Shown: positions 25,709-47,383, counted from the stretch's first letter. The stretch is 64,000 nt of DNA from an uncultured Rhodobacteraceae bacterium (GCA_947503925.1 CANNFQ010000018.1:4125-68124), one strand, 5' to 3'. Notes: generated by a model not told the origin, from the letters alone. Numbers and translations: made by a program.

Positions 25709-25748
25709 CCCCCAGATTGGATTAACCCCAGACAAGAAAGAAACCCCA

Positions 25749-26897: not shown

Positions 26898-27111
26898 TGT
26901 TGGCGCTGCGCCAAAGGGGCATTTCGCACAGAAAAGATGCTGGTGAACGGCGCATAATGTCTTTAACTTGGGCACGCGCCATTACGGCGTGATGAGGGCC
27001 GCCATGTTTCCCTTGTTGTCCCCGACGCCTACCCCTTGGGTCATTGACATAATTTTGCCCGAGACCGCCGATATATTTTATACGTATTTTCAATGAGTGA
27101 TCTGATTTTTA

Positions 27112-30100
27112 ATGTCTTCTAACGCCCCACATCTCAACCCTGAGAACGATATCGCAATCGTTGGCATGGCTGCGCATTTGCCGGGTGCCGATACGATCGC
27201 AGATTACTGGCAAAACCTGCAGGCGGGGATTGAATCGATCCGCCAATACGGGCGCGAGGAACTGCTGGCCGCTGGCGAGGCCGCCCATCGGCTGAACCGT
27301 CCCGATTATGTCCCTGCCGCTGCCCCGCTGGACGGGTTTGAGCAGTTTGATGCGGAGTTTTTTGGTCTTTCGCCGAAAGAAGCTGCGATCATGGACCCCC
27401 AGCATCGTCGTTTTCTGGAAGTGTCCTGGGAAGCGCTGGAAAATGCAGGCCATATGCCCGAACATGCCAAAGGCCCCATTGGCGTTTATGCCGGTTGCGG
27501 CATGGGTAGCTATTTCTATTTCAATATCTGCTCGAACCCTGATCTTGTCGACAATGTCGGCATGTTCCTATTGCGCCATACCGGCAATGACAAGGATTTC
27601 CTGTCCACCCGGCTGAGCCATATTTTGGACCTCAAGGGTCCGTCGGTGAACCTGCAAACCGCCTGTTCCACCTCCCTTGTGGCTACCCATTATGCCTGTC
27701 AGGCGCTGATGACCGGCGAATGCGATACCGCCCTTGCCGGTGGCGTCACCATCGAGCTGCCGCAGGATCGCGGCTATATCTATAAGGAAGGCGAGGTGCT
27801 GTCGCCTGATGGCCATTGCCATGCCTTTGATCACCGCGCGCAAGGTACGGTCTTTGGATCAGGGGCCGGTGTGGTCGTGCTGCGCCGTCTGTCGGATGCG
27901 CTGGCAGATGGTGATCATATCTGGGCCGTGATCAAAGGATCAGCCATTAATAATGATGGGGCCGCCAAGGCAGGTTACCTCGCCCCGTCTGTCGATGGGC
28001 AAGCCGCCGCCATTGCCGAGGCGCAGGATCTGGCGGGCACCCCGGCGGATACGATCGATTACATTGAATGCCATGGCACTGGCACCTATCTGGGTGACCC
28101 GATTGAGGTCGCCGCCCTGACCGAGGCTTTCAATGAAACCACCGAAGATGTGGGGTTCTGCAAGCTGGGATCGGTAAAAACCAATATCGGTCATCTGGAC
28201 ACGGCTGCCGGTGTGGCGGGCCTGATCAAGACCGCCCTGTCGCTGCATCACAAGCAGATCCCGGCATCATTGGGCTATGAAAAACCAAACCCCGCGATTG
28301 ATTTCGAAACCTCGCCTTTCAAGGTCAATGATACCCTGTCGGATTGGGTATCGTATAAAGGCCCGCGCAGGGCCGGGGTGAACTCATTAGGCGTGGGCGG
28401 CACCAATGCCCATGTGGTTTTGCAGGAAGCCCCGCAGGCGGCAGCCTCTGAACAATCGGATTGGCCGTTTCAGATATTGACCGTGTCGGGCCGCACCAAA
28501 GGCGCGCTGGATGGTAATGCCAAACGGTTGGCGGCGCATCTGCGCGACAACCCGGGTCAGGATCTGGCGGATATCGCCTGGACCCTGCAACATGGCCGCC
28601 GCGCCTTTGAACGCCGCCGGGTGATTGTGGCCGAAACCCATGAAGATGCCGCCCGGCAATTGGAAGAAAACGACCCGCGCCGCGCCTTTACCCATCAGGT
28701 CGTTGGGGCCGATCCCGATTACGCCTTCATGTTCCCCGGTGGTGGGGCACAATATGCGGGCATGGCCCGTGATCTATACGAGACCGAGCCTGTTTTTGCC
28801 GAATGGATGGATCGCGGGCTGGAGATCCTGCAACCCAAGCTGGATTACGATATTCGCGCGCTCTGGCTGCCGGAACCGGATGCGGTGGCCGCCGCTGATG
28901 AGACGCTGAAACAGCCATCTGTCCAGCTGCCCCTTATCATGATCACCGAATATGCGCTGGCCCAGCTTTGGATGGCATGGGGTGTGCAGCCTGCCGCGCT
29001 GGTCGGCCATTCGATGGGGGAAAATACCGCCGCCTGCGTGGCTGGTGTGATGTCCTTTGAGGATTGCATCGGCCTTGTCCATCTGCGTGGGAAGCTTTTT
29101 GACACGGTCCCTGCGGGGGGCATGTTGTCGATTGCCCTGCCCGCCGATCAGCTGACCCCGCTATTGGGCGATGATCTGGATCTGGGGGCCGTCAATGCGC
29201 CCAGCTTAAGCGTTGCCACAGGCCCGCAAGACGCATTGGATAATCTGGAGGCCCGGCTGCGCGCCAAGGATATCGATTGCCAGCGTATTGCCATCGATAT
29301 TGCCGCCCATTCGCGCATGCTGGAACCGATCCTGCAAGATTTTGGCGATTATCTGCGGTCGATCCAGCTGCATGCGCCGCAAATCCCGTTCACGTCGAAC
29401 CGCAGCGGCACCTACATCACTGATGCAGAGGCGACAGACCCGGAATACTGGGTCGGGCATCTGCGCGGCACCGTGCATTTTGCCGATTGCCTGACAACGC
29501 TGGCTGAAAAAGAGGACCGGGTATTCATCGAAGTGGGCCCCGGCAAGGCGATGTCATCGCTGGCTGGCCAGCATGACAAGGTGAGTGCCAATCAGGTGAT
29601 TTCCAGCCTGCGCCACCCCAAGGATGATGTCGCCGATGACGCCTATTTCATGGCCATGCTGGGCCGTGTCTGGGCTGTGGGTGGCACATTTGACTGGGAC
29701 CAGATCTGGGGGGAGGCGCGCCGCCGTCGCGTCCCCCTGCCCACATATGCGTTCCAGCAATCCGCCTATTTCATCGCCCCCGGCAAGGCCCAGGCGGCGG
29801 ATGAAAACCAATGGCTGACCCGGTCTGATGATCCTGCCGCATGGGGTTACCGCCCCGCATGGTTACCACGCTATGCCGCCTGCGATGTGGATGTGACCGG
29901 CGATCTGTCCGAGGCCACCCCGCAGACATGGCTGATTTTCCTGGATGATGCAGGGCTATGTGAGGGTGTGGCGGATCGGTTGCGTTCCGCTGGCCACACC
30001 GTCGTCACCGTCACCCCCGGCGATACATTCGCCCGCGCGGATGACATGGCTTATGTCATCGCCCCGGAACGTGGGCGTGAAAGCTATGATACGCTGATTT

Positions 30101-33100
30101 CGGATCTCAATGCCCGTGATCTGGTGCCTGACCGGATCATCCATAGCTGGATGATCACCCGTGATGAAAGCTTCCGCCCCGGATCGAGCTTTTTCCACCG
30201 CGTGCAGGAACAGGGGTTTTACAGCCTGTTTTTCCTCGCTCAGGCGATTGGGGGTGAGGACCTGACAGGCGATATGCATCTTTGCGTGCTCAGTTCCGGG
30301 GCTGCACAGCGCAAGGATGAACCGCTGCCGCATCCCGAGAAATCCACGCTTGCAGGCCCTGCCCGGGTGATCCCGCGTGAATTTGCCAATCTGAGCGTTG
30401 CCACGCTTGATCTGGATATCCAGCTTGCCACCGGCAAACGCGCCAAGGGCATTGCCAATGCCGATCAGCTGATCGGGCATATCCTGGAGGATGCGCTGGC
30501 CGAGCCGGGCAATGGCACAGCACTGGTCCGTGACGGGAAGCGTTATGCGCTGAGTTATAAACCGGCCCCGCTGGATGTCTTGCCGGATGACAGCCCGCTT
30601 TTGCGTGATGATGGTGTCTATATGATCACGGGTGGTTTTGGCGGCATCGGCCTGACATTGGCCGAGGCCCTGATCACCCGCAACAAGGCCAAGGTGGCCC
30701 TGATGTCGCGTGGCGGTTTGCCGGAGCGTGACACATGGGATGATATTCTGGCCAATACTGCCCCAACCGCATCCGTTGTCCGCCGGATTGAAGCCGTGCG
30801 CCGGTTAGAGGTGTTGGGCGGCGAGGTGCTGACACTGGCCGCAGATGTGTCCAATGTGGAGGATATCCGTGAGGCAAGGGCAGCGATCGAGGCCCGTTTC
30901 GGCCCGGTCAACGGGGTGATCCATGCGGCAGGGCATATTGATGACGGCCCGATCATGGCCAAGGATGCCACCAGTATCGAGGATGTCTTTGCCCCCAAGA
31001 TCCACGGCACCCAGGTATTGGAAGATGTCTTTCCCGACGGGGCCCTCGACTGGCTGGTCTTGTTTTCATCAAGCTCCACCGCCACCGCGCCCATTGGTCA
31101 GGTCGATTATGTTGCCGCCAATGAATTCCTGAATGCCTATGCCAAATCCCGCAGTGCGGATAAAACCCGTGTGCTGGCGATCAACTGGGGTATCTGGGTC
31201 GATGTGGGCATGGCCGCTGACGCGATGGAGGCCCGGACCGGCCCGAAGGATCCATCCCCCGTCACTGATGCCGGCGTGCCAATGCTGGATCAGGCCACGT
31301 TTGATGCCAGCGGCAACCGCCAGTTCACCGCAACCTATCAGGTGGCGGATCGCTGGTTTCTGGATGATCACCGCACCAAAGCGGGTGACGCGCTGGTCCC
31401 CGGCACCGGTTATCTGGAAATGGCCGCCGAGGGTTTGCGCGCCAATGGCGAAAAATCCGCTTTTGAGATCAGGGATCTCTACTTCCTGCGCCCCTTGGCC
31501 GTGTCCGATACCGAAGCCCGCGAGATCAGGGTCACCATGCCGCGCAATCAGGCAGGCTATGATTTTGTCGTCGAAAGCGGCGCGCAGGGCGTGTTTGAAC
31601 AAAATGCCCAGGCCAGCCTGTCGCTGGTGCCTTTTGCCGTCCCTGATCCATTGGATATTGATGCCATCACCGCCCGCTGCGCCCCTGCGCGCGAGGCAGG
31701 TGAGCTGGGCTGGATCACCTCCCCCCAGGAGGCGCATCTGCATTTCGGCCCCCGCTGGCGGGTGCTGCAATCCACCGCTTATGGGAATGGTGAAGGCATC
31801 GCCCGCCTGACCCTGCCTGATATGGCCAAGGGTGACGGCAAGGCGGGTTATCTTTTGCATCCCGGATTGATGGATCTGGCGACCGGCTGGGCGATGAAGC
31901 TGATCGATGGTTATGAGGGGCGCCATCTTTGGGTGCCGGTATCGTACCGGTCAGTCAAAGTGCTGGGCGCGCTGCCATCCGAGATTATTAGCTGGGTCCG
32001 CAGCAGTGGCGAAAACCGCACCGGCAGTGAGATTGCCAATTTCGATGTGACCCTGGCGGCCCCGGATGGCACGGTGATTGTCGAAATCACCGGCTTTTCG
32101 ATCCGCCGGATGGAAGAGCTGACCAGCTTTGGCGCGCTGGAGACCCCCGAACCGGCGGTCACCGCACAGGATGAAACCGCGCGTCCCTTGTCGCCTGCCG
32201 AAGAACGGTTGCGCCATAACCTGTCGCAGGGCATCCGCGCTGATGAGGGGGCGGGTCTGTTCATGGCGGCACTGGCGGGTGATCATCGCCAGATCATCCT
32301 GTCATCGCTGGATCTCGACGGGCTGATTGCCCAGGCCGGGCAGACCGAGAGCGAGGATGGCGAAGACGGTCAGAAATTCGAGCGCCCGCAGCTGGACAGT
32401 GATTACGTGCCCCCCGACACCCCGATCGAGGAGCGGCTGGCCGGTTTCTGGCAGGACCTTTTGGGTGTCGATCAGGTGGGTGTCGAGGACAGTTTCTTTG
32501 ACTTAGGCGGGCATTCCCTGATTGCGGTGCGGCTTTTTGCGCAGATCCGCAAAGCCTATGATGTGGATTTCCCCATTTCGGTCCTGTTTGAGGCCCCGAC
32601 AATCCGCAAATGTGCAGCACTCATTGCCGAACGTGGCGTGTCGGATACCGGTGAAACCGACGCCCCGGCAGGCGATGCCCCCAAGGCGCCTGCCCGCCGT
32701 TTTACCCATCTGGTGCCGATGCATAGCGGCGAAGGTGGTCCGAAAACGCCGTTCTTCCTTGTCGCTGGCATGTTCGGCAATGTGCTGAACCTGCGCCATC
32801 TGGCGCATCTGGTGGGCAGTGACCGGCCATTTTACGGGCTGCAGGCCCGCGGGCTCTTTGGCGATGAAGACCCGCATCGCACGATTGAGGCCGCCGCCAC
32901 GGATTATATTGCCGAGATGCGGCAGGTGCAGCCCACCGGCCCTTATATGGTGGGTGGCTTTTCGGGGGGCGGCATCACCGCCTATGAGATTGCCCAGCAG
33001 TTAAAGGCAGCGGGCGAAGAGGTGTCTGCCGTGGTGATGCTCGATACCCCGCTGCCGGTGCGCCCGCCTGTCGACCGGGCCGACAATATCCGCATCAAGC

Positions 33101-33552
33101 TGATGGATCTGAAATCCGGCGGCCTGCCCTTTGTCATCAATTGGGTTGGGCGGCGGTTGGGCCGGGTGCTGGGCAAAGGTCAGGAAAGCGCCGAGGCTGT
33201 CGAGGAAGGCCCGCAATTCCATAATGAAGCGATCCAGGATGCGTTTCTGGAAAGTGTGGGTCAATATCAAGTCCAGCCCTGGGATGGGCCACTGGCCCTG
33301 TTCCGCCCGCCATTGGTTGCCAAATGGGTGGTTGGGGGCCGGATGGTCAGCGAATACCGCAATTATCTATATGATGATAATGACTGGACCCAATTCGCCC
33401 CGGAGATCACGGTGTTCGAGGTTCCCGGCGATCATGACAGCATGGTGCTGGAGCCCAATGTCCGGGTGCTGGCGGCCCGGGTCAAACGGGTGCTGGAACA
33501 ATCGGGCGGCCCGGCACAGGCCCCGGTTTATTTCAAGGATGCCGCCGAATAA
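27112..33552 (+). CDS. Type I polyketide synthase KS-AT-KR-DH-ACP-TE
   Basis: KS QTACSTS / ECHGTGT / NIGHLD; AT GHSMGE; KR TGGFGGIG...YVAAN; DH HRTKAGDALVP...LMD; ACP LGGHSL; TE GFSGG...GDHDSM. Confidence 0.95.
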   Translation: MSSNAPHLNPENDIAIVGMAAHLPGADTIADYWQNLQAGIESIRQYGREELLAAGEAAHRLNRPDYVPAAAPLDGFEQFDAEFFGLSPKEAAIMDPQHRRFLEVSWEALENAGHMPEHAKGPIGVYAGCGMGSYFYFNICSNPDLVDNVGMFLLRHTGNDKDFLSTRLSHILDLKGPSVNLQTACSTSLVATHYACQALMTGECDTALAGGVTIELPQDRGYIYKEGEVLSPDGHCHAFDHRAQGTVFGSGAGVVVLRRLSDALADGDHIWAVIKGSAINNDGAAKAGYLAPSVDGQAAAIAEAQDLAGTPADTIDYIECHGTGTYLGDPIEVAALTEAFNETTEDVGFCKLGSVKTNIGHLDTAAGVAGLIKTALSLHHKQIPASLGYEKPNPAIDFETSPFKVNDTLSDWVSYKGPRRAGVNSLGVGGTNAHVVLQEAPQAAASEQSDWPFQILTVSGRTKGALDGNAKRLAAHLRDNPGQDLADIAWTLQHGRRAFERRRVIVAETHEDAARQLEENDPRRAFTHQVVGADPDYAFMFPGGGAQYAGMARDLYETEPVFAEWMDRGLEILQPKLDYDIRALWLPEPDAVAAADETLKQPSVQLPLIMITEYALAQLWMAWGVQPAALVGHSMGENTAACVAGVMSFEDCIGLVHLRGKLFDTVPAGGMLSIALPADQLTPLLGDDLDLGAVNAPSLSVATGPQDALDNLEARLRAKDIDCQRIAIDIAAHSRMLEPILQDFGDYLRSIQLHAPQIPFTSNRSGTYITDAEATDPEYWVGHLRGTVHFADCLTTLAEKEDRVFIEVGPGKAMSSLAGQHDKVSANQVISSLRHPKDDVADDAYFMAMLGRVWAVGGTFDWDQIWGEARRRRVPLPTYAFQQSAYFIAPGKAQAADENQWLTRSDDPAAWGYRPAWLPRYAACDVDVTGDLSEATPQTWLIFLDDAGLCEGVADRLRSAGHTVVTVTPGDTFARADDMAYVIAPERGRESYDTLISDLNARDLVPDRIIHSWMITRDESFRPGSSFFHRVQEQGFYSLFFLAQAIGGEDLTGDMHLCVLSSGAAQRKDEPLPHPEKSTLAGPARVIPREFANLSVATLDLDIQLATGKRAKGIANADQLIGHILEDALAEPGNGTALVRDGKRYALSYKPAPLDVLPDDSPLLRDDGVYMITGGFGGIGLTLAEALITRNKAKVALMSRGGLPERDTWDDILANTAPTASVVRRIEAVRRLEVLGGEVLTLAADVSNVEDIREARAAIEARFGPVNGVIHAAGHIDDGPIMAKDATSIEDVFAPKIHGTQVLEDVFPDGALDWLVLFSSSSTATAPIGQVDYVAANEFLNAYAKSRSADKTRVLAINWGIWVDVGMAADAMEARTGPKDPSPVTDAGVPMLDQATFDASGNRQFTATYQVADRWFLDDHRTKAGDALVPGTGYLEMAAEGLRANGEKSAFEIRDLYFLRPLAVSDTEAREIRVTMPRNQAGYDFVVESGAQGVFEQNAQASLSLVPFAVPDPLDIDAITARCAPAREAGELGWITSPQEAHLHFGPRWRVLQSTAYGNGEGIARLTLPDMAKGDGKAGYLLHPGLMDLATGWAMKLIDGYEGRHLWVPVSYRSVKVLGALPSEIISWVRSSGENRTGSEIANFDVTLAAPDGTVIVEITGFSIRRMEELTSFGALETPEPAVTAQDETARPLSPAEERLRHNLSQGIRADEGAGLFMAALAGDHRQIILSSLDLDGLIAQAGQTESEDGEDGQKFERPQLDSDYVPPDTPIEERLAGFWQDLLGVDQVGVEDSFFDLGGHSLIAVRLFAQIRKAYDVDFPISVLFEAPTIRKCAALIAERGVSDTGETDAPAGDAPKAPARRFTHLVPMHSGEGGPKTPFFLVAGMFGNVLNLRHLAHLVGSDRPFYGLQARGLFGDEDPHRTIEAAATDYIAEMRQVQPTGPYMVGGFSGGGITAYEIAQQLKAAGEEVSAVVMLDTPLPVRPPVDRADNIRIKLMDLKSGGLPFVINWVGRRLGRVLGKGQESAEAVEEGPQFHNEAIQDAFLESVGQYQVQPWDGPLALFRPPLVAKWVVGGRMVSEYRNYLYDDNDWTQFAPEITVFEVPGDHDSMVLEPNVRVLAARVKRVLEQSGGPAQAPVYFKDAAE

Positions 33553-33594
33553 CGCATGTTCACGCGCCGGTCTGTTCCGGCGCATAGAAGGGTA

Positions 33595-34578
33595 ATGATG
33601 TCCGATCCCACGGTATTGACGATTGTTCTGAACTATAAGACCGCCCAGATGACGCTGGAGGCGGCCGCCGCCGCCCGTGTGGCCATGCAGGACCTGCAAG
33701 GTGAAATTGTCATTGTCGATAACGACAGCCAGGACGGGTCCTTTGACACGATGCGTGCCCATGTTGCCGCCGAAGGCTGGGACCGGGTCCGGGTCATCCA
33801 GTCAGGTGTCAATGGCGGTTACGGTGCGGGCAATAATGTGGGGATCAAGGCAGGCCTGTCGGATGGCAGCCGTCCTGATTTTGTCTATATCCTGAATTCC
33901 GATGCTTTCCCTGCGCCCGATGCCATCAAGGTGCTTTACGATTACCTGCAGGCCCATCCGCAGGTTGGTTTTGCAGGCAGCTATATTCACGGCGATGATG
34001 GTGGCCAGCACACAACCACGTTTCGCTTTCCATCGCTGTTCAGTGAAATCGAAGGGGCCATTAATTTTGGCCCTGTCACCCGGTTGTTGAAATCCTACCG
34101 AGTCCCTGTCGAAGGTGTTGATGCGACCCGCCCTGTTGACTGGCTGGCCGGGGCCAGCGTGATGATGCGTCAGGATGTGCTGGACCAGATTGGTCTGTTT
34201 GATGAAACCTTCTTTCTTTATTTCGAGGAAACCGATCTGTGCCGTCGTGCCCGCAAGGCGGGTCACGAGATCGTCTATGTCCGCGAAAGCGAGGTCATGC
34301 ATCTGGGATCGGTCTCAACCGGCATGAAGGATTGGTCCAAGGTCCCCGGTTACTGGTTTGATTCCCGGTTTCACTATTTCACCAAGAACCATGGCCGGTT
34401 TTATACCGGTTTTGCCACGCTGATGCATCTGATCTGCGGCAGCCTGAACTGGCTGCGCTGCAAACTGACAGGCCGCAAAATTGGCACGGCGCCCGGGTTT
34501 CTGCGTGATCTGGCCCGCCATGATCTATCCGCCCTTTTGACTGCCAAATCCCCCCCGACCGCCAAAATCGGAGAATAA
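33595..34578 (+). CDS. Glycosyltransferase family 2
   Basis: IVLNYK, IVDNDSQD, NGGYGAGNN, ILNSDA, WLAGAS, FFLYFEETD. ORF open from 33556. Confidence 0.9.
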   Translation: MMSDPTVLTIVLNYKTAQMTLEAAAAARVAMQDLQGEIVIVDNDSQDGSFDTMRAHVAAEGWDRVRVIQSGVNGGYGAGNNVGIKAGLSDGSRPDFVYILNSDAFPAPDAIKVLYDYLQAHPQVGFAGSYIHGDDGGQHTTTFRFPSLFSEIEGAINFGPVTRLLKSYRVPVEGVDATRPVDWLAGASVMMRQDVLDQIGLFDETFFLYFEETDLCRRARKAGHEIVYVRESEVMHLGSVSTGMKDWSKVPGYWFDSRFHYFTKNHGRFYTGFATLMHLICGSLNWLRCKLTGRKIGTAPGFLRDLARHDLSALLTAKSPPTAKIGE

Positions 34579-34582
34579 CACC

Positions 34583-37500
34583 ATGTCCCAGTTCAGCGCT
34601 GTCATTATCGGTAATGAATCCCTAGCCATCCAATGCGCCGAGATGCTGCGCGAGGGCGGGCATGATCTGCAGGCCGTCATCACCCGCAACCCCGATATTC
34701 AAAGCTGGGCGGATGCCGCCGGGATCACCAGTTATACAGCCGATGCAGATCTGACCGAAGCCCTGTCCGGGCATCGTTTTGACTGGCTTTTATCCATCGC
34801 CAATCTCGACATGATCCCCGATGCCGTGCTGGCCCTGCCTGCGCGCGGTGCGGTGAATTTTCATGATGGCCCCCTGCCCCGCTATGCCGGGCTGAATGCC
34901 CCGGTCTGGGCCTTGCTGGGGGGCGAGGTCGAATATGGCATCAGCTGGCATATGATCAGCGGTGGCGTGGATGAAGGTGCGCTGCTGGCCCAGCAATTCT
35001 TTGACATCGCCCCTGATGAAACCACGCTGACCCTGAACACCAAATGCTATGGCGCGGCTATCGAGAGTTTCCCCACGGTCATGGGTAAGCTGGCGCAGGC
35101 GGACCCTGTCCTGACCGCACAGGATCTGTCGCAGCGCAGCTATTTTGCCAAAAATGACCGCCCCGCAGCAGCAGGCCGCCTCGATTTCACCAAGACCGCC
35201 CGCAATATCACCACGCTGGTGCGCGCGCTGGATCATGGCACTTATTGGAACCCGCTGACCTGCCCGAAATTTGAAGCTGGCGGCAAGGTCTGGCTGGTCA
35301 GCAGCGCCATGGCCGGTCATGCCGCCGCTGACAGCCCTGCGGGCACCGTACTGGCGGTCGAGGATGACAGCCTGACTGTGGCCAGTGCCACGGCCCCGGT
35401 GACCTTGGGCGGGTTGCGCGATGCCACGGGGGCCCCGGTATCTGCCAGCGCGATTGCCGCTGTTGGCGATACGCTGCCCTCCCCCGATGCGGATATGGCT
35501 GCCGCGCTGACGGCCGCCTTAAAAGCCACGCTGAAATCCGAACCGCAATGGCGCGCCCGGCTAGAGCGGATGACCCCGGCCAGCCTGCCACTGATTGATC
35601 TGGCGGCGGAGGCCGGAGAGGTCACCAAGACGCCTTTGGCCGGTGATCCTGGTGATCTGCGCCGCGCCATGGCCGCATTGGCCCTTGGCCTGAATGAAAA
35701 TGCCGATGTCACATTGGCCTTGCATCTGGGTGATGCGCATCCCGGTTATCTGAACAGCTGGGGTCCGGTCAGCGCGGCGGATTTGGATGACAGTATCGCC
35801 AATGCACAGGCGCTTGGCCCTTTTGCCGCTGACCTGATCGCCCGCACCCCCGGTCTCGACCGGCCTGTCACCCCGGCCCTTGGCCTGTCGGATGCGACCC
35901 ATATCACAGGCACCGCCCTGACATTGGGTGGTCAGACGCTCTTTGCCGATACCGGCAAGATCACCCCTGATGCTGTGACCCTGATGGCGGACCGGTTGGC
36001 ACATATGGCCGCGCAGATCGCCAAAGGTGACGTCCCAACCCTGTTGACGGAGGCCGAGCGCCAGAAGGTGCTGTTTGACTGGAACGCCACAAAGGTGGAT
36101 TTCCCGGAAAGCCAATGCATCCATCAGGCGTTCGAGGCGCAGGTGGCCCGCACCCCCGATGCCGAGGCCCTGTCATTTGAAGGCGAAAGCCTGACCTATG
36201 CCCAGCTGAATGCGCGCGCCAATGAAATGGCCCATATCCTGATGGGGATGGGTGTTGGCCCGGATGCGATTGTCGGCCTGCATCTGCCCCGGTCCAGCGC
36301 GCTTTTGATCGCAGCCCTTGCCATTATGAAGGCGGGCGGGGCCTATCTGCCGATGGACCCGGCTTATCCGGCGGACAGGACAGCCCTTTATATCAGCGAT
36401 TCAAAGACGCAGATCATCGTCACCGATACAGCCTTGGCTGCCGCATTACCTGATACGGATGCCAAGGTGCTGGCGGCGGATGATCTGCCCGATGCCCCGT
36501 CATCGGACAATCCCGACAGTGCCGTCACCAGCGCCAATCTGGCCTACATGATCTATACATCCGGATCGACCGGACGCCCCAAAGGGGTGATGGTTGAACA
36601 TCGCAATGTGGCGAATTTCTTTACCGGGATGGATGCGCGCATCGCCCATGACCCTGCGGGTGTCTGGATGGCAGTGACCAGCCTGTCCTTTGATATTTCG
36701 GTGCTGGAGCTGTTCTGGACCTTGGCGCGGGGGTTCAAGCTGGTGATCAGCGGCGATGAAAGCCGTGCGCTTGTGGCCGGTGACAGCACGGCCAGCACAG
36801 GCGCGATGGATTTCAGCCTCTATTACTGGGGCAATGATGATGGGGTGGGGCGTGATAAATACCGCACCTTGCTGGAAGGCGCGCAATTTGGCGACAAACA
36901 CGGGTTCTGTGCGGTCTGGACGCCGGAGCGGCATTTCCACGCCTTTGGCGGCCCCTATCCCAACCCATCCGTGACAGGGGCGGCGGTGGCGGCGGTGACC
37001 AAGAACCTTGCCGTGCGCGCAGGCTCCTGCGTCGCCCCCCTGCACCATACCGCACGCATTGCCGAGGAATGGGCGGTGATCGACAATATCACCAATGGCA
37101 AGACAGGCCTGGCGATTGCGTCAGGCTGGCAGCCGGATGATTTCATCCTGCGCCCCGAAAATACGCCGCCCAAGAACAAACCGGCGATGTTTGAACAGAT
37201 CCGCGATCTGCGCAAACTCTGGTCGGGTGAAAAGGTCGCTTTCCCCCGTGCGGATGGGGAAATGCATGAGGTGCTGACCCAGCCGCGCCCGGTTTCCAAG
37301 AAACTGAATGTCTGGGTGACCACAGCGGGCAATCCCGAAACCTGGAAAGAAGCGGGCCGTAATGGTTGTAACGTGCTGACCCATCTTCTGGGGCAAAGCG
37401 TGGATGAGGTGGGCGAGAAGATCACCCTTTATCACGCTGCCCTGCGCGAAGCGGGCCATGATCCGGCGGATTTCACCGTCACGCTGATGCTGCATTCTTT

Positions 37501-39229
37501 CCTGGCAGAGACCCGCGATCAGGCGCGCGAGATTGCCCGTGAACCGATGAAGGATTACCTGCGCTCTGCCGCCGGGCTGATCAAGCAATATGCCTGGGCC
37601 TTCCCCGCTTTCAAGAAGCCGCAAGGGGTCGAAAACCCGATGCAGCTGGATCTGGGGTCGCTGGAAGAGGAAGAGCTGGAAGGCATCCTCGATTTCGCAT
37701 TCGAGCGTTATTTCAACGATAGCGGCCTTTTTGGCACGGTTGAGGATGCAATGGCGCGTGTCGCGCAGGTCAAGGAAATCGGCGTGACCGAAATTGCCTG
37801 TCTCATTGATTACGGCATCGATGTGGATCATGTCATGGAGGGCCTCAAGCCGCTGGCCGAGGTGGTCAAACAGGCCAATGCAGATACCGGGCTGGCCGAT
37901 GATGACTATTCCATTGCCGCCCAGATTGCCCGCCACAAGGTCACCCATCTGCAATGCACCCCGTCCATGGTGCAGATGCTGGTGATGAATGATGAGGCAC
38001 GTGCCGCCTTGGCCGGACTGGATCATATGATGGTCGGGGGTGAGGCATTGCCTGGTGCGCTGGCTGATGAGTTGCGTGAGTTGACCGGGGGCCATGTGGA
38101 AAACATGTATGGCCCGACCGAAACCACGATCTGGTCCACCACCCAGACCGCCACAGCCGGTCAGGGGGCCATTCCCATCGGCACCCCGATTACCAATACG
38201 CAAGTCTATGTGCTGGATGATGACCTGCAGCCCGTCCCCGTGGGTGTGCCCGGCACGCTTTATATTGGTGGTGCTGGCGTCACCCGTGGCTATTTCGAAC
38301 GCCCCGATCTGACAGAAGAACGGTTTATTCCTGATCCGTTCCATGCAGATGGGGGACGGATGTATAATACCGGCGATCTGGTGCGCTGGCGTCCCGATGG
38401 TGCCCTTGATTTCCTTGGCCGGGCCGATTTTCAGGTCAAGCTGCGCGGCTACCGGGTCGAGCTGGGCGAGATCGAAGCGGTGATTGATGAATTTGCAGGC
38501 GTCCAGCAATCGGTTGTTGTTGCCCGTGAAGACACGCCCGGTGTGGTCCAGCTTGTGGGCTATCTGCTGGGCGATGCGGGTATCGATCAGGCCGCCTTGC
38601 GCGCCCATATGCTGGAAAGGCTGCCCGATTACATGGTGCCGCGCCATTTTGTACCGCTGGATGCTTTCCCCCTGACCCCCAACAAGAAGGTGGATCGCAA
38701 GGCTCTGCCTGCCCCGCAGATCGGGCAAGCTGCTGTCACCGCCCCGAAACCGGCCCCTGCGGCGGATGCGCCTGCCCCCACGGTAACGCCTGCGGCCAAT
38801 ATGGGATCCGCCGCCGAGATTACGGCGGCGATCAGTGCCATCTGGTCGCGTATCCTTGGCGTCCCACAGATCAGCCCGAAAGACAGTTTCTTTGATCTGG
38901 GCGGGCATTCATTGCTGGCGGTGCAGGCGCATCGCGAGATCCGCAAGGATCTGGGTGTCGCCAAATTGTCGATCACCGATATCTTCCGCGCGCCCACGCT
39001 TGAGGCGCTGAGCACCATCGTCGCCAAGAAGACTGGCGGCGGGGTTGCCCCTGCGCCGCGCCCTGCGGCACCCACGGCTCCGACTACACCCACGGCCCCC
39101 GCACCCTCTGGCCCGGCAGAACCGGCCCCGGCGGCTGCCGCATCGGCAGAGCCTGCCCCCGGCGGCAATGCCCGCAGTGACGCCATGGCGCGCCGCCGTG
39201 AAATGCGGGCGCGTCGGCAAAACCGGTGA
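34583..39229 (+). CDS. NRPS-like protein: formyltransferase - adenylation domain interrupted by luciferase-like monooxygenase - PCP
   Basis: F: NFHDGPLPRYAG, GVDEG. A: YMIYTSGSTGRPKG, SFDIS, NMYGPTE, MYNTGD, QVKLRGYRVELGEIE, NKKVDRK. LLM insert: WTPERHFHAFGGPYPNPS (about 36806-37875). PCP: LGGHSL. Confidence 0.95.
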   Translation: MSQFSAVIIGNESLAIQCAEMLREGGHDLQAVITRNPDIQSWADAAGITSYTADADLTEALSGHRFDWLLSIANLDMIPDAVLALPARGAVNFHDGPLPRYAGLNAPVWALLGGEVEYGISWHMISGGVDEGALLAQQFFDIAPDETTLTLNTKCYGAAIESFPTVMGKLAQADPVLTAQDLSQRSYFAKNDRPAAAGRLDFTKTARNITTLVRALDHGTYWNPLTCPKFEAGGKVWLVSSAMAGHAAADSPAGTVLAVEDDSLTVASATAPVTLGGLRDATGAPVSASAIAAVGDTLPSPDADMAAALTAALKATLKSEPQWRARLERMTPASLPLIDLAAEAGEVTKTPLAGDPGDLRRAMAALALGLNENADVTLALHLGDAHPGYLNSWGPVSAADLDDSIANAQALGPFAADLIARTPGLDRPVTPALGLSDATHITGTALTLGGQTLFADTGKITPDAVTLMADRLAHMAAQIAKGDVPTLLTEAERQKVLFDWNATKVDFPESQCIHQAFEAQVARTPDAEALSFEGESLTYAQLNARANEMAHILMGMGVGPDAIVGLHLPRSSALLIAALAIMKAGGAYLPMDPAYPADRTALYISDSKTQIIVTDTALAAALPDTDAKVLAADDLPDAPSSDNPDSAVTSANLAYMIYTSGSTGRPKGVMVEHRNVANFFTGMDARIAHDPAGVWMAVTSLSFDISVLELFWTLARGFKLVISGDESRALVAGDSTASTGAMDFSLYYWGNDDGVGRDKYRTLLEGAQFGDKHGFCAVWTPERHFHAFGGPYPNPSVTGAAVAAVTKNLAVRAGSCVAPLHHTARIAEEWAVIDNITNGKTGLAIASGWQPDDFILRPENTPPKNKPAMFEQIRDLRKLWSGEKVAFPRADGEMHEVLTQPRPVSKKLNVWVTTAGNPETWKEAGRNGCNVLTHLLGQSVDEVGEKITLYHAALREAGHDPADFTVTLMLHSFLAETRDQAREIAREPMKDYLRSAAGLIKQYAWAFPAFKKPQGVENPMQLDLGSLEEEELEGILDFAFERYFNDSGLFGTVEDAMARVAQVKEIGVTEIACLIDYGIDVDHVMEGLKPLAEVVKQANADTGLADDDYSIAAQIARHKVTHLQCTPSMVQMLVMNDEARAALAGLDHMMVGGEALPGALADELRELTGGHVENMYGPTETTIWSTTQTATAGQGAIPIGTPITNTQVYVLDDDLQPVPVGVPGTLYIGGAGVTRGYFERPDLTEERFIPDPFHADGGRMYNTGDLVRWRPDGALDFLGRADFQVKLRGYRVELGEIEAVIDEFAGVQQSVVVAREDTPGVVQLVGYLLGDAGIDQAALRAHMLERLPDYMVPRHFVPLDAFPLTPNKKVDRKALPAPQIGQAAVTAPKPAPAADAPAPTVTPAANMGSAAEITAAISAIWSRILGVPQISPKDSFFDLGGHSLLAVQAHREIRKDLGVAKLSITDIFRAPTLEALSTIVAKKTGGGVAPAPRPAAPTAPTTPTAPAPSGPAEPAPAAAASAEPAPGGNARSDAMARRREMRARRQNR

Positions 39230-39864
39230 GCCATGATGCGCTTGCTGGGGCCCTGCGCGCTTTGCTGGGCCCTGCTGTCGGGATTGGAGTCACCGATCCG
39301 GCGGATGCGATTGATGATCTGTGGGAGGTCGAAAACCCTGCCATGGCCCGGGCGATCCCCAAACGCCGATACGAGTTTGCCGCTGGCAGGCGCGCGGCCC
39401 GCGCGGCCATGGCCGTCCTTGGCCTGCCGCCTGCCGCGATCCGCCAAGGTTCTGACCGGGCGCCGGTCTGGCCTGCCGGGCTGACAGGGTCGATTGCCCA
39501 TTGTGAGACGGTTTGCATCGCAGCCGCCAGCCCGCACCACCGCAGCATCGGGATTGATATCGAACCGGCGGATGATTTGCCCGCAGATTTGATCACGATC
39601 ATCTGCACCGATGCGGAACAGGCATGGTTGCCCCAAACCGGGCGCGGGCGCGTGGCCAAACAGATATTCAGCGCCAAGGAGGCTGTCTATAAGGCCCAAT
39701 ACCCGCTGACCGGGCGGATCATCGGGTTTGATGACCTGGATTTATCGCCTGCGGGGGATGGGTGCCTTGCCATTACATTCACCGATCCCGCAATGCCTGC
39801 CGCATTACAATCTGTCACCTTCACCGAGGTGGAAAATATGATCATTTCCGCTTGCAAATGCTGA
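39226..39864 (+). CDS. 4'-phosphopantetheinyl transferase (EntD-like)
   Basis: KRRYEFAAGR, PVWPAGLTGSIAH, IGIDIE, FSAKEAVYKA. Confidence 0.92.
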   Translation: MSHDALAGALRALLGPAVGIGVTDPADAIDDLWEVENPAMARAIPKRRYEFAAGRRAARAAMAVLGLPPAAIRQGSDRAPVWPAGLTGSIAHCETVCIAAASPHHRSIGIDIEPADDLPADLITIICTDAEQAWLPQTGRGRVAKQIFSAKEAVYKAQYPLTGRIIGFDDLDLSPAGDGCLAITFTDPAMPAALQSVTFTEVENMIISACKC

Positions 39865-39935
39865 ACGCCCTACTGGATTTTCACCCGCCCGCATTTACGT
39901 AACGCCATATATTATTGTTCTGATAGGTCCTGATC

Positions 39936-40877
39936 ATGTTGCAGCGTCTGAAGCTTATTTACATCGCCCCGATTGTGCTGGTGCTTGGCGCCTTCGGGAT
40001 CTGGACGCGTTTTGCTGTTCCTGCCCCGCTGGATGCGGAGCGCACGGATGCGCTTTATACCAATCCGGCCCCTGCCCCGGCAGGTTCGATGAAAGTGCTA
40101 CATCTGGGCCATAGCCTTGTCGGCTATGATGTGCCCGCAATGCTGACGCAACTGGCCGAGGAGGGCCATGATTATCACAGCCAGCTTGGCTGGGGGACAT
40201 TTCTGAAAGCCCATTGGGACGAGGACCACCCGCGCAAGGGCTTTGCGGAATCCAATGTGCATCCGCAATTCCGCGACGGGCATGAGGCGCTGGCATCGGG
40301 GGATTACGATGCCGTTGTGCTGACCGAGGCCGTCGAGATCCGGGATTCCATCAAATATATGGAAAGCCCCAAGATGCTGCATAACCTGACCGACAAGGCC
40401 CGGGCAAACCGGCCTGATGTGCGTGTCTATTTCTATGAAACCTGGCATCCGCTGAATGATCCCGAAGGCTGGCTGACCCGGATCGATCGCGATCTGGAAA
40501 AATACTGGGAAACCGAAATTCTGCGCCGGGCGCTGAATTACGAAAAAGACCCGCAGCCGGTCTATATGATCCCTGGCGGCCAGGTCATGGCCCGCCTGAC
40601 CCGCCATATCGAGGAAAGCGGCGGGGTTGGCCCGCTCAACACCCGCGAAGATCTGTTTTCAGATGATATCCATTTCAATGATTACGGCGCCTATCTGATG
40701 GCACTGACCCATTATGCGGTGCTGTACCAACGCTCCCCCGTTGGGCTGCCCCATGCGTTGCGCAAGGCTGATGGCACCCCCGCCGATGATCCCGGTCCCG
40801 AGGCCGCACAGCTGATGCAAGAGATCGTCTGGCAGGTTGTCACGGGCTATCCCAAGACCGGTGTACCGCAAAATTGA
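39936..40877 (+). CDS. Membrane-anchored SGNH/GDSL-like hydrolase or acyltransferase
   Basis: N-terminal TM; LHLGHSL (block I Ser), FYETW, DDIHFN (block V Asp-His). Confidence 0.65.
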   Translation: MLQRLKLIYIAPIVLVLGAFGIWTRFAVPAPLDAERTDALYTNPAPAPAGSMKVLHLGHSLVGYDVPAMLTQLAEEGHDYHSQLGWGTFLKAHWDEDHPRKGFAESNVHPQFRDGHEALASGDYDAVVLTEAVEIRDSIKYMESPKMLHNLTDKARANRPDVRVYFYETWHPLNDPEGWLTRIDRDLEKYWETEILRRALNYEKDPQPVYMIPGGQVMARLTRHIEESGGVGPLNTREDLFSDDIHFNDYGAYLMALTHYAVLYQRSPVGLPHALRKADGTPADDPGPEAAQLMQEIVWQVVTGYPKTGVPQN

Positions 40878-41458
40878 GGCGATTCGAGACCGCTGTAGAA
40901 CAAGGCGTAGTTGTCCGCATCTTGTTGCGGTAACGGCACGCCCGATCTTTGTTCTCTATCCCTACACAATGTGGGTCGAGTCGTGTGGACCGTTTCCGGG
41001 AGCCGACAACTTTTCCGATAGAAGCTGCGGCATGCACAGCCTCACCTTGCGTCATGGGCAAAATCTTGCCCATTCGCGAGCGAGTTATCGCTAACTTTGT
41101 CAACGCTCTTAAAACAAAAAATCCCATATTTTTTAGGGAAATTCAAATGATTAGGCCTGTATAAATTTCTATGAGCGCCTTTTCACCGACACAATTCAGC
41201 CATATCGGTTGCAAGCTTTTGACCCCAGATGTTCCTTGTTGCCAATTCTGCTAACTAATCCGTATCAAACAGGTGCGATATGTCGAAACTTTCCTTACCC
41301 GGGAACCAACCCAACCGGAAATCACCACCATAAACGAAGGCTAAAGACAGATCGGCCAAAAGGGACCATGGCCGTGCGCGTGCTCACACCAGTTAGATCA
41401 AAACCAATCGGGACTTCTCTTTCTACCTCACTCACCCACTCACAAACGAACATAAGGT

Positions 41459-45145: not shown

Positions 45146-45172
45146 CCCACGCGACCGGTTCGCCAAAACAGG

Positions 45173-45201
45173 GACTCGCCTTTTCAGGCGGGTCTTTTTT
45201 T
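45173..45201 (+). terminator. Rho-independent terminator
   Basis: GACTCGCCT-TTTC-AGGCGGGTC stem followed by a T7 run, just downstream of the PA14 gene stop. Confidence 0.85.
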
Positions 45202-45330
45202 GGTGTGCCCGCGCCATGTTCTGAAAATACCAATCACCTTGGACCGTGCCCGACATGCGGCTATACATGCGCCCAGATGTACAGGATAGCCCTGCCAGAT
45301 ATCGCCATACCATTGTTTTAAGTAGGTTTT

Positions 45331-46506: not shown

Positions 46507-46654
46507 TCGGCAATAGTGGCACCCAAAATCTGAGGCGCGTTTTCCCGCACCGCCTAAAAGACACAGGCGACCAAAACCACAATGATCCCCGGCGTCTCTG
46601 TTTACATTGTGCAGGCGGTTCGCTAACGAGAAGATGTTAAAAAGTGTGAGTGTT

Positions 46655-47383
46655 ATGAAAAAATTTCTTCTTTTGTCTCTTTTGGCCTGTTTTACAGTAT
46701 TTTCGGCCGGTATCGCCTCTGCTGCGACAATCAATATCTACCAATCATCAGGTACCAAGATACGGTCATCGGCCGGTGTCGGCGAAAGCACGGCCACCGA
46801 AGGGCGTCATCTGGCTGGCTCTCTTGTGACGGTGACTTATGCTGATGGCACCACCGAAGATCTGGTCTGGCGCCGCGTTGGTCGCTATTCGCTTGGCGGC
46901 GCCTATGGCAATGACATCACAATTTCGCAAAGCGGTGGCCCGATGGTCATCGATGCCCTGAAAACCGTCAGCGCAATCTATATCGACCTGGCCCCGTCCA
47001 AGACGATTTTCGATATCATCGATACCCGGGGTAATCCCGATCCGACTGCCAGCACACCATCGACAAGCTTTGGCACCCCGTTTTCCATCGAACGTGGCGG
47101 TGAAGGTTTGGTCGGGCAGATTGATGTGACATATTCCGGCATCGTCAATATTGCCGGGCATGCCGCTGTTGGTGATATCTACACCCGTATGTTGGTTGAT
47201 TTTTCCGGTCTGACCAGCGGTGGTTTCCTGGGACGCATGCGCATTGAAGGTGATACGGATTCACTGGCCGATAATGCCGTCATGTCTGTTGTCCCCCTGC
47301 CTGCTGGTCTGCCCCTGCTGATCGCGGGTCTGGCCATGTTCGGGTTCATGCGCACCCGCCGCAAGGCAGCCGCGATTGCCTGA
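46655..47383 (+). CDS. VPLPA-CTERM sorting-domain protein (exosortase D substrate)
   Basis: Signal peptide MKKFLLLSLLACFTVFSAGIASA; C-terminus SVVPLPAGLPLLIAGLAMFGFMRTRRK (VPLPA + TM + basic tail). Confidence 0.95.
   Translation: MKKFLLLSLLACFTVFSAGIASAATINIYQSSGTKIRSSAGVGESTATEGRHLAGSLVTVTYADGTTEDLVWRRVGRYSLGGAYGNDITISQSGGPMVIDALKTVSAIYIDLAPSKTIFDIIDTRGNPDPTASTPSTSFGTPFSIERGGEGLVGQIDVTYSGIVNIAGHAAVGDIYTRMLVDFSGLTSGGFLGRMRIEGDTDSLADNAVMSVVPLPAGLPLLIAGLAMFGFMRTRRKAAAIA

What the first reader, a model, noticed from the sequence alone, without database searches (positions are those of the whole stretch)
34583..39030. Formyltransferase plus MOx-interrupted glycine A domain in a single loading module
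Seen: F domain with the Asn-His-Asp triad; a luciferase-like monooxygenase of about 355 aa inserted between A4 (FDIS) and A5 (NMYGPTE); manually read pocket code D-I-L-Q-M-G-M-I-W-K, close to the glycine code DILQLGMIWK. Known: F-A-T initiation occurs in LgrA; A(MOx) domains in MtaG/MelG act on Gly at the end of a line, where alpha-hydroxylation gives a terminal amide. Having both on a starter module is unusual: MOx could hydroxylate formyl-Gly (a labile carbinolamide yielding formamide plus glyoxylyl-PCP) or act later in the pathway. No flavin reductase is seen nearby.
Basis: partly seen in the sequence, partly recalled or inferred. Interest (0 to 1): 0.75.

Follow-up and report, generated by a model that had tools for sequence, protein, structure and literature searches.

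The report
Formyl-glycine hydroxylating NRPS starter module
This gene encodes a one-module peptide synthetase that loads glycine and carries both a formyltransferase and a built-in flavin monooxygenase; it is a typical copy of a four-gene synthetase cluster common in marine Roseobacter-group bacteria, whose product is still unknown and which usually sits inside polysaccharide-synthesis loci.

Summary
ORF 34583-39229 (+), 1548 aa, reads: formyltransferase (Asn92/His94/Asp130), adenylation domain split between A4 (FDIS) and A5 (NMYGPTE) by a 350-aa luciferase-like monooxygenase (LLM, TIGR04020), then PCP. The specificity code is DILQMGMIWK, a glycine type.

The architecture is not rare. At least 595 species genomes encode relatives. 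Of the best 150 library representatives (clusters at 50% identity), 92 carry F plus the LLM-split A domain. The module lies in the conserved operon PKS-GT2-NRPS-PPTase, described in Roseobacter genomes (28 of 57) with no known product.

Three points go beyond the finding.
- The 200-aa "linker" between F and A is the C-terminal lobe of a condensation domain whose catalytic half was replaced by F.
- Every LLM-split A domain examined, in starter and elongation modules, has the glycine code.
- In 51 of 62 long loci the cassette lies within 10 kb of exopolysaccharide genes.

Most likely mechanism (inferred): F makes N-formyl-Gly-S-PCP, the minimal N-acyl-glycine; the LLM hydroxylates its alpha-carbon; the KS-AT-KR-DH-carrier-TE synthase adds one malonyl unit. 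The product may decorate a polysaccharide. No biochemical test of such a module was found.

The parts
34583..39229 (+). Whole NRPS gene (1548 aa): F, C-lobe remnant, A(LLM), PCP, tail
   Evidence: ORF list; Pfam and NCBIfam scans. Best database relatives are 95% identical, with the same six Pfam domains.
34583..35458 (+). Formyltransferase domain, residues 1-292, both subdomains; triad N92 (nt 34856), H94, D130 (nt 34970)
   Evidence: Pfam PF00551 and PF02911. PDB sequence hits: WbkC E 8e-16, ArnA 1.6e-13, Fmt 2.7e-13, LgrA F only 1e-3. The AF2 model has pLDDT 90.8 and an Fmt/ArnA fold with TMt about 0.8. Triad present in 197/198 sequences.
35468..36040 (+). Remnant of a condensation domain (C-terminal lobe only, no HHxxxDG), residues 296-486
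   Evidence: No Pfam hit even at E 10. AF2 pLDDT 93.5. All 50 best PDB fold matches belong to the NRPS condensation family, TMq up to 0.69. A family HMM of this segment hits 250 C domains; in the best canonical hits it starts about 45-65 aa after their HHxxxDG motif.
36041..36802 (+). Adenylation domain, N-terminal part (motifs A1-A4; FDIS at 36689-36700)
   Evidence: Pfam AMP-binding 517-726; motif positions.
36812..37864 (+). Luciferase-like FMN-dependent monooxygenase domain inserted in the A4-A5 loop, residues 744-1094
   Evidence: TIGR04020, 470 bits against cutoff 244. PDB 6KET (PuwE) E 2e-94, 45% identity over 336 aligned residues. It contributes much of the protein's list of invariant residues.
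37889..38707 (+). Adenylation domain, C-terminal part (A5 NMYGPTE at 38102-38122, through A10 with K1369)
38828..39016 (+). PCP domain, residues 1416-1478; phosphopantetheine Ser1443 in GGHSL (nt 38900-38914)
   Evidence: Pfam PP-binding E 1e-13; Ser present in 197/198 sequences.
39038..39226 (+). Pro/Ala-rich tail ending in a conserved basic helix, DAMARRREMRARR (nt 39179-39217); function unknown, possibly docking
   Evidence: R1538, R1542 and R1545 are invariant in the alignment; motif position.
27112..33552 (+). Partner type I PKS: KS-AT-KR-DH-carrier-TE (2146 aa)
   Evidence: Pfam. KS C184/H321/H361, AT GHSMG, KR Y1333, DH H1420, carrier GGHS1801L, TE GFS1950GG. Present in 61 of 62 long related loci.
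33556..34578 (+). Soluble family-2 glycosyltransferase, 4 nt after the PKS stop and 4 nt before the NRPS start
   Evidence: Pfam; no hydrophobic segment; present in 58/62 loci.
39226..39864 (+). Sfp/EntD-type phosphopantetheinyl transferase; its start overlaps the NRPS stop by 4 nt
   Evidence: Pfam 4PPT_N and ACPS; NCBIfam; junction sequence; present in 54/62 loci.
39936..40877 (+). Exported SGNH-like protein (weak DUF4886 match; GHS60 and DDIH246 motifs; N-terminal signal anchor), a frequent fifth gene
   Evidence: Pfam E 2.4e-4, below cutoff; sequence and hydropathy; present in 23/62 loci.

Best explanation
The gene encodes the starter module of a two-protein NRPS-PKS line, in the operon PKS-GT2-NRPS-PPTase. 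Proposed steps follow.
1. The A domain activates glycine and loads it on Ser1443 of the PCP.
2. The N-terminal formyltransferase uses N10-formyl-tetrahydrofolate to make N-formyl-glycyl-S-PCP.
3. The FMN-dependent luciferase-like monooxygenase in the A4-A5 loop, supplied with FMNH2 by a flavin reductase encoded elsewhere, hydroxylates the glycine alpha-carbon. The product is an N-formyl carbinolamide.
4. The KS of the neighbouring PKS takes this unit, adds one malonyl unit, the chain is reduced and dehydrated, and the TE releases it.

The logic is evolutionary. The module descends from a C-A(LLM)-T glycine elongation module of the MtaG type. The catalytic half of its C domain was swapped for a formyltransferase, so formyl stands in for the upstream peptidyl group as the N-acyl group the monooxygenase needs.

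Shown: the domain architecture, active-site conservation, the glycine code, the C-lobe remnant and the operon. Inferred: every chemical step, their order and the fate of the carbinolamide. I slightly favour retention, as in solanimycin B. Because the cassette sits in Wzx-type polysaccharide loci across orders, the product is probably attached to, or primes, a surface or secreted polysaccharide rather than being a free antibiotic. This last step is the least certain.
For: Architecture.

Conservation: the NHD triad, the PCP serine and a Gly-type code DILQxGxxWK are each kept in 197 of 198 sequences spanning many clusters at 50% identity. All three activities are therefore under selection together.

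Glycine: the spliced A-PCP matches the Gly module of LgrA best, at 370 bits.

Monooxygenase: the LLM domain is 45% identical to the PuwE Ox domain. That domain is assigned the 2-hydroxylation of a carrier-bound acyl chain (PMC4219810). MtaG and MelG carry an LLM at the same A4-A5 site and hydroxylate N-acyl-glycine (PMC11411415, PMC10204066).

General rule: all 35 LLM-split A domains found in representatives longer than 1,700 aa carry a glycine-type code (33 fit DILQxGxxWK; one has DIVQ and one DILTSG). All 24 without an N-terminal F, and one with, show HHxxxDG in the 600 aa scanned upstream, except two of the former.

C-lobe remnant: the F-A spacer is a C domain lacking its N-lobe and HHxxxDG.

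Downstream steps: the KS has intact Cys-His-His, and KR, DH and TE motifs are present. Gene junctions are 4 nt apart or overlap.

Polysaccharide link: 51 of 62 long loci hold a polysaccharide marker within 10 kb. Annotated contexts in Ruegeria, Aminobacter and Agrobacterium agree. The window itself is a polysaccharide island.
Against: No biochemical data were found for any member. The F domain resembles sugar N-formyltransferases (E 8e-16) far more than the LgrA F domain (E 1e-3), so its substrate is inferred only from the fusion. An A domain could load glyoxylate directly, but equally nothing shows that the formyl or hydroxyl group survives into a product. The PKS could act iteratively. The polysaccharide link rests on neighbourhood alone, without a computed random-locus control. 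In two Sandaracinaceae loci no PKS lies within the flank. The paper that first described the cluster (Martens et al., Microb Ecol 2007) could not be read, so its own proposal is unknown to me.
Confidence: 0.55

Rival explanations
1. Masked glyoxylate starter. N-formyl-alpha-hydroxyglycyl-S-PCP collapses to formamide plus glyoxylyl-S-PCP. The PKS then extends the 2-oxoacetyl unit to a 4-oxobut-2-enoyl type product. F and LLM together act as an oxidative deaminase.
For: In MtaG/MelG the carbinolamide made by the same kind of A4-A5 LLM is cleaved, leaving glyoxylyl-S-PCP (PMC11411415, PMC10204066). The window's A(LLM) unit is homologous over its whole length to those of elongation modules.
Against: This route spends a formyl-THF only to discard it. 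In solanimycin B, alpha-hydroxyglycine persists through further extension (PMC10204066). No lyase-like domain is conserved in the cassette.
Confidence: 0.22
2. The LLM does not act on the glycyl-PCP. It hydroxylates a later intermediate held on the PKS carrier, alpha to that thioester, as the PuwE Ox domain does.
For: The closest solved relative is the PuwE Ox domain of a PKS module (PMC4219810). The PKS carrier is PCP-like, with GGHSL.
Against: The LLM sits inside the A domain of its own module. Every LLM-split A domain examined is glycine-specific, which is unexplained if the target were not glycine. The known A4-A5 cases act on the module's own glycine (PMC10204066).
Confidence: 0.1
3. The F domain is a sugar N-formyltransferase working with the adjacent GT2 and the polysaccharide genes on an amino-sugar nucleotide. 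It is merely fused to the NRPS, and glycine is loaded and used unformylated.
For: The best sequence hits of the F domain are WbkC, ArnA and FdtF/QdtF-type sugar formyltransferases. A GT2 gene lies immediately upstream, and polysaccharide genes surround the cassette.
Against: The conserved cassette has no aminotransferase to make an amino sugar. F replaces precisely the catalytic half of a C domain and keeps the lobe that contacts A, which is the position of the N-acylating activity. A free alpha-hydroxyglycine amine would lose ammonia at once, so the LLM needs an N-acyl substrate (established carbinolamine chemistry).
Confidence: 0.07
4. The cassette makes a free, diffusible secondary metabolite (antibiotic, signal or siderophore). 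Its position next to polysaccharide genes is only a shared genomic island.
For: This is the usual assumption in Roseobacter genome-mining papers (PMC4337385, PMC9769649, PMC10584327). 11 of 62 long loci show none of the six window-derived markers used (GT4 x2, Wzx, chain-length determinant, Tyr kinase, deacetylase) within 10 kb.
Against: The association recurs in different gene orders and in three orders of Alphaproteobacteria. The cassette has no transporter gene of its own. A GT2 and often an exported SGNH-like protein are part of it.
Confidence: 0.35

Closest known systems
Conserved Roseobacter-group NRPS/PKS/glycosyltransferase/PPTase cluster (attributed to Martens et al.; described in PMC4337385)
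   Same: It has the same four genes in the same order. The NRPS is 59-75% identical to those of Loktanella, Yoonia, Ruegeria, Tateyamaria, Sulfitobacter, Thalassovita and Salipiger. NCBI gives these proteins the same name, 'MupA/Atu3671 family FMN-dependent luciferase-like monooxygenase'.
   Different: Nothing essential differs; this is another copy. The papers I could read give no product or mechanism and do not mention the C-lobe remnant or the polysaccharide context.
LgrA initiation module F-A-T (linear gramicidin)
   Same: An N-terminal formyltransferase with an Asn-His-Asp triad precedes A and PCP and starts the line. The likely chemistry is formylation of the aminoacyl-S-PCP.
   Different: The F domains are barely related in sequence (E 1e-3, against 1e-13 to 1e-16 for ArnA, Fmt and WbkC). 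Here F keeps the full two-subdomain Fmt/ArnA fold and is followed by a 190-aa C-lobe remnant. In LgrA the A domain begins near residue 200. The substrate is Gly rather than Val, the A domain is split by an LLM, and the next module is a PKS. This is probably an independent fusion.
MtaG/MelG terminal modules C-A(MOx)-T-TE (myxothiazol, melithiazol)
   Same: An LLM-type monooxygenase is inserted between A4 and A5 of a glycine-specific A domain. Alpha-hydroxylation of N-acyl-glycyl-S-PCP is the proposed chemistry (PMC11411415, PMC10204066).
   Different: Those modules are last in the line, with a full C domain and their own TE, and the carbinolamide is cleaved to give a terminal amide. Here the module is first, the C domain is truncated and replaced by F, there is no TE in the protein, and a PKS follows. 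I could not obtain MtaG or MelG sequences to measure identity.
SolF module 4 of solanimycin (glycine A domain with a flavin monooxygenase)
   Same: It is a glycine module with a built-in monooxygenase. Its alpha-hydroxyglycine is retained and extended further, which shows that collapse is not obligatory (PMC10204066).
   Different: In SolF the monooxygenase is inserted between A8 and A9, not A4 and A5. It is an elongation module with a normal C domain (PMC10204066, PMC9765074).
PuwE Ox domain (puwainaphycin PKS/NRPS; PDB 6KET)
   Same: It is the closest solved structure to the LLM domain (E 2e-94, 45% identity). It is assigned hydroxylation alpha to a carrier-bound thioester (PMC4219810).
   Different: It is a separate domain between a PKS and an NRPS module, not an insertion in an A domain. 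Its substrate is a 3-amino fatty acyl chain.

Membership tests
Conserved Roseobacter NRPS/PKS cluster | Four adjacent genes: NRPS, type I PKS, glycosyltransferase, PPTase (PMC4337385) | tested here: met
   PKS 27112-33552, GT2 33556-34578, NRPS 34583-39229, PPTase 39226-39864, all on the + strand, with junctions of 4 nt or overlapping.
Conserved Roseobacter NRPS/PKS cluster | Orthology and synteny with the cluster in Roseobacter-group genomes | tested here: met
   Full-length relatives at 59-95% identity. In 62 long loci: PKS 61, GT2 58, PPTase 54.
TIGR04020 (MupA/Atu3671 natural-product LLM domain) | Score above NCBI's curated cutoff | tested here: met
   470.1 bits against cutoff 244.45, model positions 1-340 of 341.
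MtaG/MelG-type A(MOx) module | LLM inserted between A4 and A5 of the A domain | tested here: met
   FDIS 703-706, LLM 744-1094, NMYGPTE 1174-1180. The spliced A domain aligns without a break.
MtaG/MelG-type A(MOx) module | Glycine specificity code | tested here: met
   DILQMGMIWK. 197 of 198 sequences fit DILQxGxxWK. Best PDB match is the Gly module of LgrA.
MtaG/MelG-type A(MOx) module | Terminal position: complete C domain upstream and TE downstream in the same protein | tested here: not met
   No HHxxxDG and only the C-terminal lobe of a C domain. No TE in this protein; the TE is on the PKS.
MtaG/MelG-type A(MOx) module | Alpha-hydroxylation followed by release of a terminal amide | not testable with these tools
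   This needs enzymology or product analysis.
LgrA-type F-A-T initiation module | N-terminal formyltransferase with Asn-His-Asp triad, followed by A and PCP, with no catalytic C domain | tested here: met
   N92/H94/D130; domain order.
LgrA-type F-A-T initiation module | F domain of the LgrA lineage, fused directly to the A domain | tested here: not met
   LgrA F E 1e-3 against ArnA, Fmt and WbkC at 1e-13 to 1e-16. A 190-aa C-lobe remnant lies between F and A.
LgrA-type F-A-T initiation module | Formylation of aminoacyl-S-PCP with N10-formyl-THF | not testable with these tools
   Inferred only from the fusion and from conservation of the triad.

The most novel reading that the evidence does not exclude
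The cassette is not an antibiotic line. It is an assembly line dedicated to polysaccharide chemistry. It builds a small unit primed by N-formyl-(alpha-hydroxy)glycine and extended by one malonate. The TE, the GT2 and the exported SGNH-like protein then attach this unit to, or use it to prime, a Wzx/Wzy-type exopolysaccharide in Roseobacter-group and other Alphaproteobacteria. The F/C-lobe chimera would be a natural example of converting an elongation module into a starter by swapping half a condensation domain for a formyltransferase.
Probability: 0.3. Interest if true: 0.75.

Novelty: new member of a known kind. Interest (0 to 1): 0.45.

Why it matters
Roseobacter-group bacteria are among the most abundant surface colonisers and algal partners in coastal seas. 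This is their most widely shared NRPS/PKS cluster, found in 28 of 57 genomes in one survey (PMC4337385). Papers from 2015, 2022 and 2023 still report no product.

The analysis gives a concrete, testable chemical hypothesis: formyl as the minimal N-acyl group that enables glycine alpha-hydroxylation. It also gives an evolutionary route (half a C domain replaced by a formyltransferase) that could be of use to people who engineer NRPS starter modules. And it points experimenters towards the exopolysaccharide fraction rather than culture extracts.

As a scan finding it is a correct reading of a known, common gene family, not a discovery of a new one.

Tried and rejected
- The original description of the cluster (Martens et al. 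2007, PubMed 17351813) and the fabrubactin paper (PMC7882191) are not held. I could not check what was proposed there, or whether Atu3671/FbnE is a stand-alone LLM.
- Ten literature searches found no paper that characterises the product.
- Pfam on the F-A spacer gave nothing, even at E 10. Only structure prediction and a family HMM identified it.
- The fold search with the 520-aa model was dominated by the F domain and said nothing about the spacer.
- The promoter and terminator scan of 25600-41600 gave no more sites than shuffles.
- PDB sequence searches were uninformative for the GT2, for the SGNH-like protein and for ORF 25749-26897.
- The sequencing-run search found only DNA metagenomes (marine, algae, plastisphere) and no RNA, so expression was not tested.
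- A degenerate or relic module was considered and rejected, because all active-site residues are conserved.
- A link to the Agrobacterium fabrubactin siderophore cluster was considered. The Agrobacterium sp. AGB01 locus instead shows the same PKS/PPTase cassette among glycosyltransferase and flippase genes.

Full report
OBSERVATION

The ORF at 34583-39229 on the + strand encodes 1548 aa. Pfam finds these domains:
- Formyl_trans_N, residues 52-165
- Formyl_trans_C, 197-292
- AMP-binding in two separated stretches, E 2.3e-86
- Bac_luciferase, 753-1069, E 1.1e-40
- AMP-binding_C, 1296-1369
- PP-binding, 1416-1478

NCBIfam places residues 744-1094 in TIGR04020, the MupA/Atu3671 natural-product luciferase-like monooxygenase (LLM) domain, at 470 bits against a cutoff of 244.

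The formyltransferase triad is N92/H94/D130. FDIS (A4) is at 703-706 and NMYGPTE (A5) at 1174-1180. When the LLM is cut out, the A-PCP aligns from end to end with the glycine module of LgrA at 370 bits, and the only gap is at the splice point.

HOW COMMON IT IS

A protein search returned more than 2000 relatives. Of the 120 best, 119 carry both the formyltransferase (PF00551) and luciferase (PF00296) domains; 106 carry all six Pfam domains, and P0103 is a partial protein without the F domain. Where named they come from Loktanella, Yoonia, Ruegeria, Tateyamaria, Sulfitobacter, Thalassovita, Salipiger and Nioella. NCBI calls them 'MupA/Atu3671 family FMN-dependent luciferase-like monooxygenase'.

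Most are Rhodobacterales. Others are Hydrogenophaga, a betaproteobacterial MAG, Devosia, Bosea, Agrobacterium, Erythrobacter, Sandaracinus and a Phycisphaeraceae MAG.

In a library clustered at 50% identity, 92 of the best 150 representatives have F plus the LLM-split A domain. The plasmid collection adds Aminobacter, Shinella, Neorhizobium, Rhizobium, Methylobacterium and Paracoccus.

GENE CONTEXT

The gene lies in a tight operon:
- PKS, 27112-33552
- family-2 glycosyltransferase (GT2), 33556-34578
- NRPS, 34583-39229
- Sfp-type PPTase, 39226-39864

The junctions are 4 nt apart or overlap. In 62 related loci of at least 20 kb, the PKS is present in 61, the GT2 in 58 and the PPTase in 54.

[quoted passage not shown] Papers from 2022 and 2023 still call it uncharacterised and without a MIBiG match (PMC9769649, PMC10584327). 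I could not read the original description.

THE F-A SPACER IS HALF A CONDENSATION DOMAIN

Residues 293-516 have no Pfam match, even at E 10. AlphaFold2 folds residues 296-500 with pLDDT 93.5. All 50 best PDB fold matches are NRPS condensation-family domains, including the Txo1/Txo2 C-A didomains, McyB, the LgrA C domain and the teicoplanin X domain, with TM-scores up to 0.69.

An HMM built from this segment across the family hits 250 C domains in 55 multimodular synthetases. In the best canonical hits the match begins about 45-65 residues after the HHxxxDG motif (seen nearby in 194 of 250) and ends at the A domain. The window segment has no such motif.

The formyltransferase has therefore replaced the N-terminal lobe and catalytic motif of a C domain. 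The lobe that packs against the A domain was kept.

The F part itself has the full two-subdomain Fmt/ArnA fold. In sequence it is much closer to WbkC, ArnA and Fmt (E 1e-13 to 1e-16) than to the LgrA F domain (E 1e-3). LgrA has no such spacer, because its A domain starts near residue 200. The module works like LgrA's but is not of its lineage.

THE LLM-SPLIT A DOMAIN IS A GLYCINE UNIT EVERYWHERE

Among 198 aligned sequences of 1450-1700 aa (the window protein plus 197 relatives), 197 fit DILQxGxxWK, 197 keep the NHD triad and 197 keep the PCP serine.

In representatives longer than 1,700 aa, all 35 LLM-split A domains have a glycine-type code (33 fit DILQxGxxWK). Of the 24 without an N-terminal F, 22 show HHxxxDG in the 600 aa scanned upstream.

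The LLM domain is 45% identical to the PuwE Ox domain, PDB 6KET. That domain is assigned the 2-hydroxylation of a carrier-bound acyl chain (PMC4219810).

MtaG and MelG (C-A-MOX-A-T-TE) carry the monooxygenase at the same A4-A5 site. They hydroxylate the alpha-carbon of N-acyl-glycine, after which the carbinolamide is cleaved to a terminal amide (PMC11411415, PMC10204066). In solanimycin B, a glycine module with a flavin monooxygenase makes an alpha-hydroxyglycine that is retained while the chain is extended further (PMC10204066).

MECHANISM

Putting this together, the most economical reading is that formyl replaces the upstream peptidyl group. F makes N-formyl-Gly-S-PCP, which is the minimal N-acyl-glycine. 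The LLM then hydroxylates its alpha-carbon. A free alpha-hydroxyglycine amine would lose ammonia at once, so N-acylation must come first; that rests on established carbinolamine chemistry, not on a test here.

The PKS has what it needs for one extension:
- KS with C184/H321/H361
- AT with GHSMG
- KR with Y1333
- DH with H1420
- a PCP-like carrier with GGHSL
- TE with GFSGG

These support one malonyl extension, reduction, dehydration and release. Whether the carbinolamide is kept or collapses to formamide plus a glyoxylyl unit cannot be decided from sequence. I give retention a slight edge, because collapse would waste the formyl group. All chemical steps are inferred.

POLYSACCHARIDE CONTEXT

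The window from about 13 to 51 kb is a polysaccharide island. In order it holds:
- PAPS synthase, polysaccharide deacetylase, GT4 and a Wzx-type flippase
- chain-length determinant, tyrosine autokinase, GMC oxidoreductase and SDR
- a polytopic membrane protein
- the NRPS-PKS cassette
- an exported SGNH-like protein
- a PA14-domain protein, a second GT4 and an asparagine synthase

In 51 of 62 long related loci, at least one such marker lies within 10 kb. The flippase and a GT4 are each present in 37, and the tyrosine kinase in 32. The flippase lies upstream of the NRPS in 23 of these loci and downstream in 14.

Deposited annotation agrees:
- Ruegeria conchae: exosortase XrtD, rfbABCD, a sugar transferase directly before the PKS, GMC plus SDR, GT4 and a flippase.
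- Aminobacter pUSP1: glycosyltransferases, an O-antigen-ligase-family protein, an export protein and a flippase.
- Agrobacterium sp. AGB01: GT4, flippase and GT2 genes.

No random-locus control was computed. Still, I judge a link that persists across three orders and several gene orders unlikely to be chance. I therefore think the product is tied to a surface or secreted polysaccharide. This is the least secure part of the account.

VERDICT

The object is an ordinary member of a very common gene family that is already annotated and already noted in the literature. What remains open is the chemistry, and this analysis makes that question sharper.

Noticed in passing
window 39038-39226 (motif at 39179-39217): After the PCP comes a Pro/Ala-rich stretch, and then a basic helix, DAMARRREMRARR, with R1538, R1542 and R1545 invariant across the family. 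The PKS has only about 12 residues before its KS, so no classical N-terminal docking partner is visible. The function is unknown.
   Followed up: partly
window 13038-26897 and 39936-51135: The NRPS-PKS cassette is embedded in a large polysaccharide locus. It holds a bifunctional ATP sulfurylase/APS kinase (13038-14756, -), which hints at a sulfated polymer. It also holds a deacetylase, GT4, a Wzx flippase, a chain-length determinant, a Tyr autokinase, a GMC oxidoreductase plus SDR, a second GT4 and an AsnB-like amidotransferase.
   Followed up: partly
window 39936-40877 (+): This 313-aa protein has an N-terminal signal anchor and SGNH-like motifs (LGHS60L, DDIH246). It matches DUF4886 only weakly. 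It follows the PPTase in 23 of 62 related loci and may be a periplasmic esterase or acyltransferase acting on a polysaccharide.
   Followed up: partly
window 27112-33552 (+): The PKS has the unusual domain order KS-AT-KR-DH-carrier-TE. Its carrier has the PCP-type GGHSL motif instead of GxDS. Its AT has IAAHS where HAFH or YASH is usual, so the extender unit was not assigned.
   Followed up: partly
window 34883-34891 (residues 101-103): In the formyltransferase loop that reads YRG or WRG in WbkC (alignment) and, from memory, in ArnA and Fmt, this family has YAG. A102 is invariant in 17 sequences and at least 90% conserved in 48. Any consequence for folate or substrate binding is unknown.
   Followed up: no
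window 25749-26897 (+): A 382-aa polytopic membrane protein lies directly upstream of the PKS. It matches nothing in Pfam, NCBIfam or the PDB and is not found next to the cassette in the other 80 loci. It may be a Wzy-like polymerase or an acyltransferase.
   Followed up: partly
window 41459-45145 (+): A 1228-aa protein has an N-terminal PA14 domain and no other Pfam match. It lies just downstream of the cassette. A relative is present at 56% identity in the Litoreibacter locus L003.
   Followed up: no
proteins P0125, P0144, P0236 and P0246 (representative library): The F plus C-lobe-remnant start also heads multimodular synthetases of 3000-6000 aa. In P0125 the LLM-split glycine A domain sits in a later module with a normal C domain. 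F-C* and A(LLM) are therefore separable building blocks.
   Followed up: partly
L058 and L075 (Sandaracinaceae MAGs): These myxobacterial relatives of the NRPS (51-55% identical) have a PPTase nearby but no PKS or GT2 within the available flank. A Ser/Thr protein kinase gene lies next to the one in L058. They may feed a different partner.
   Followed up: partly
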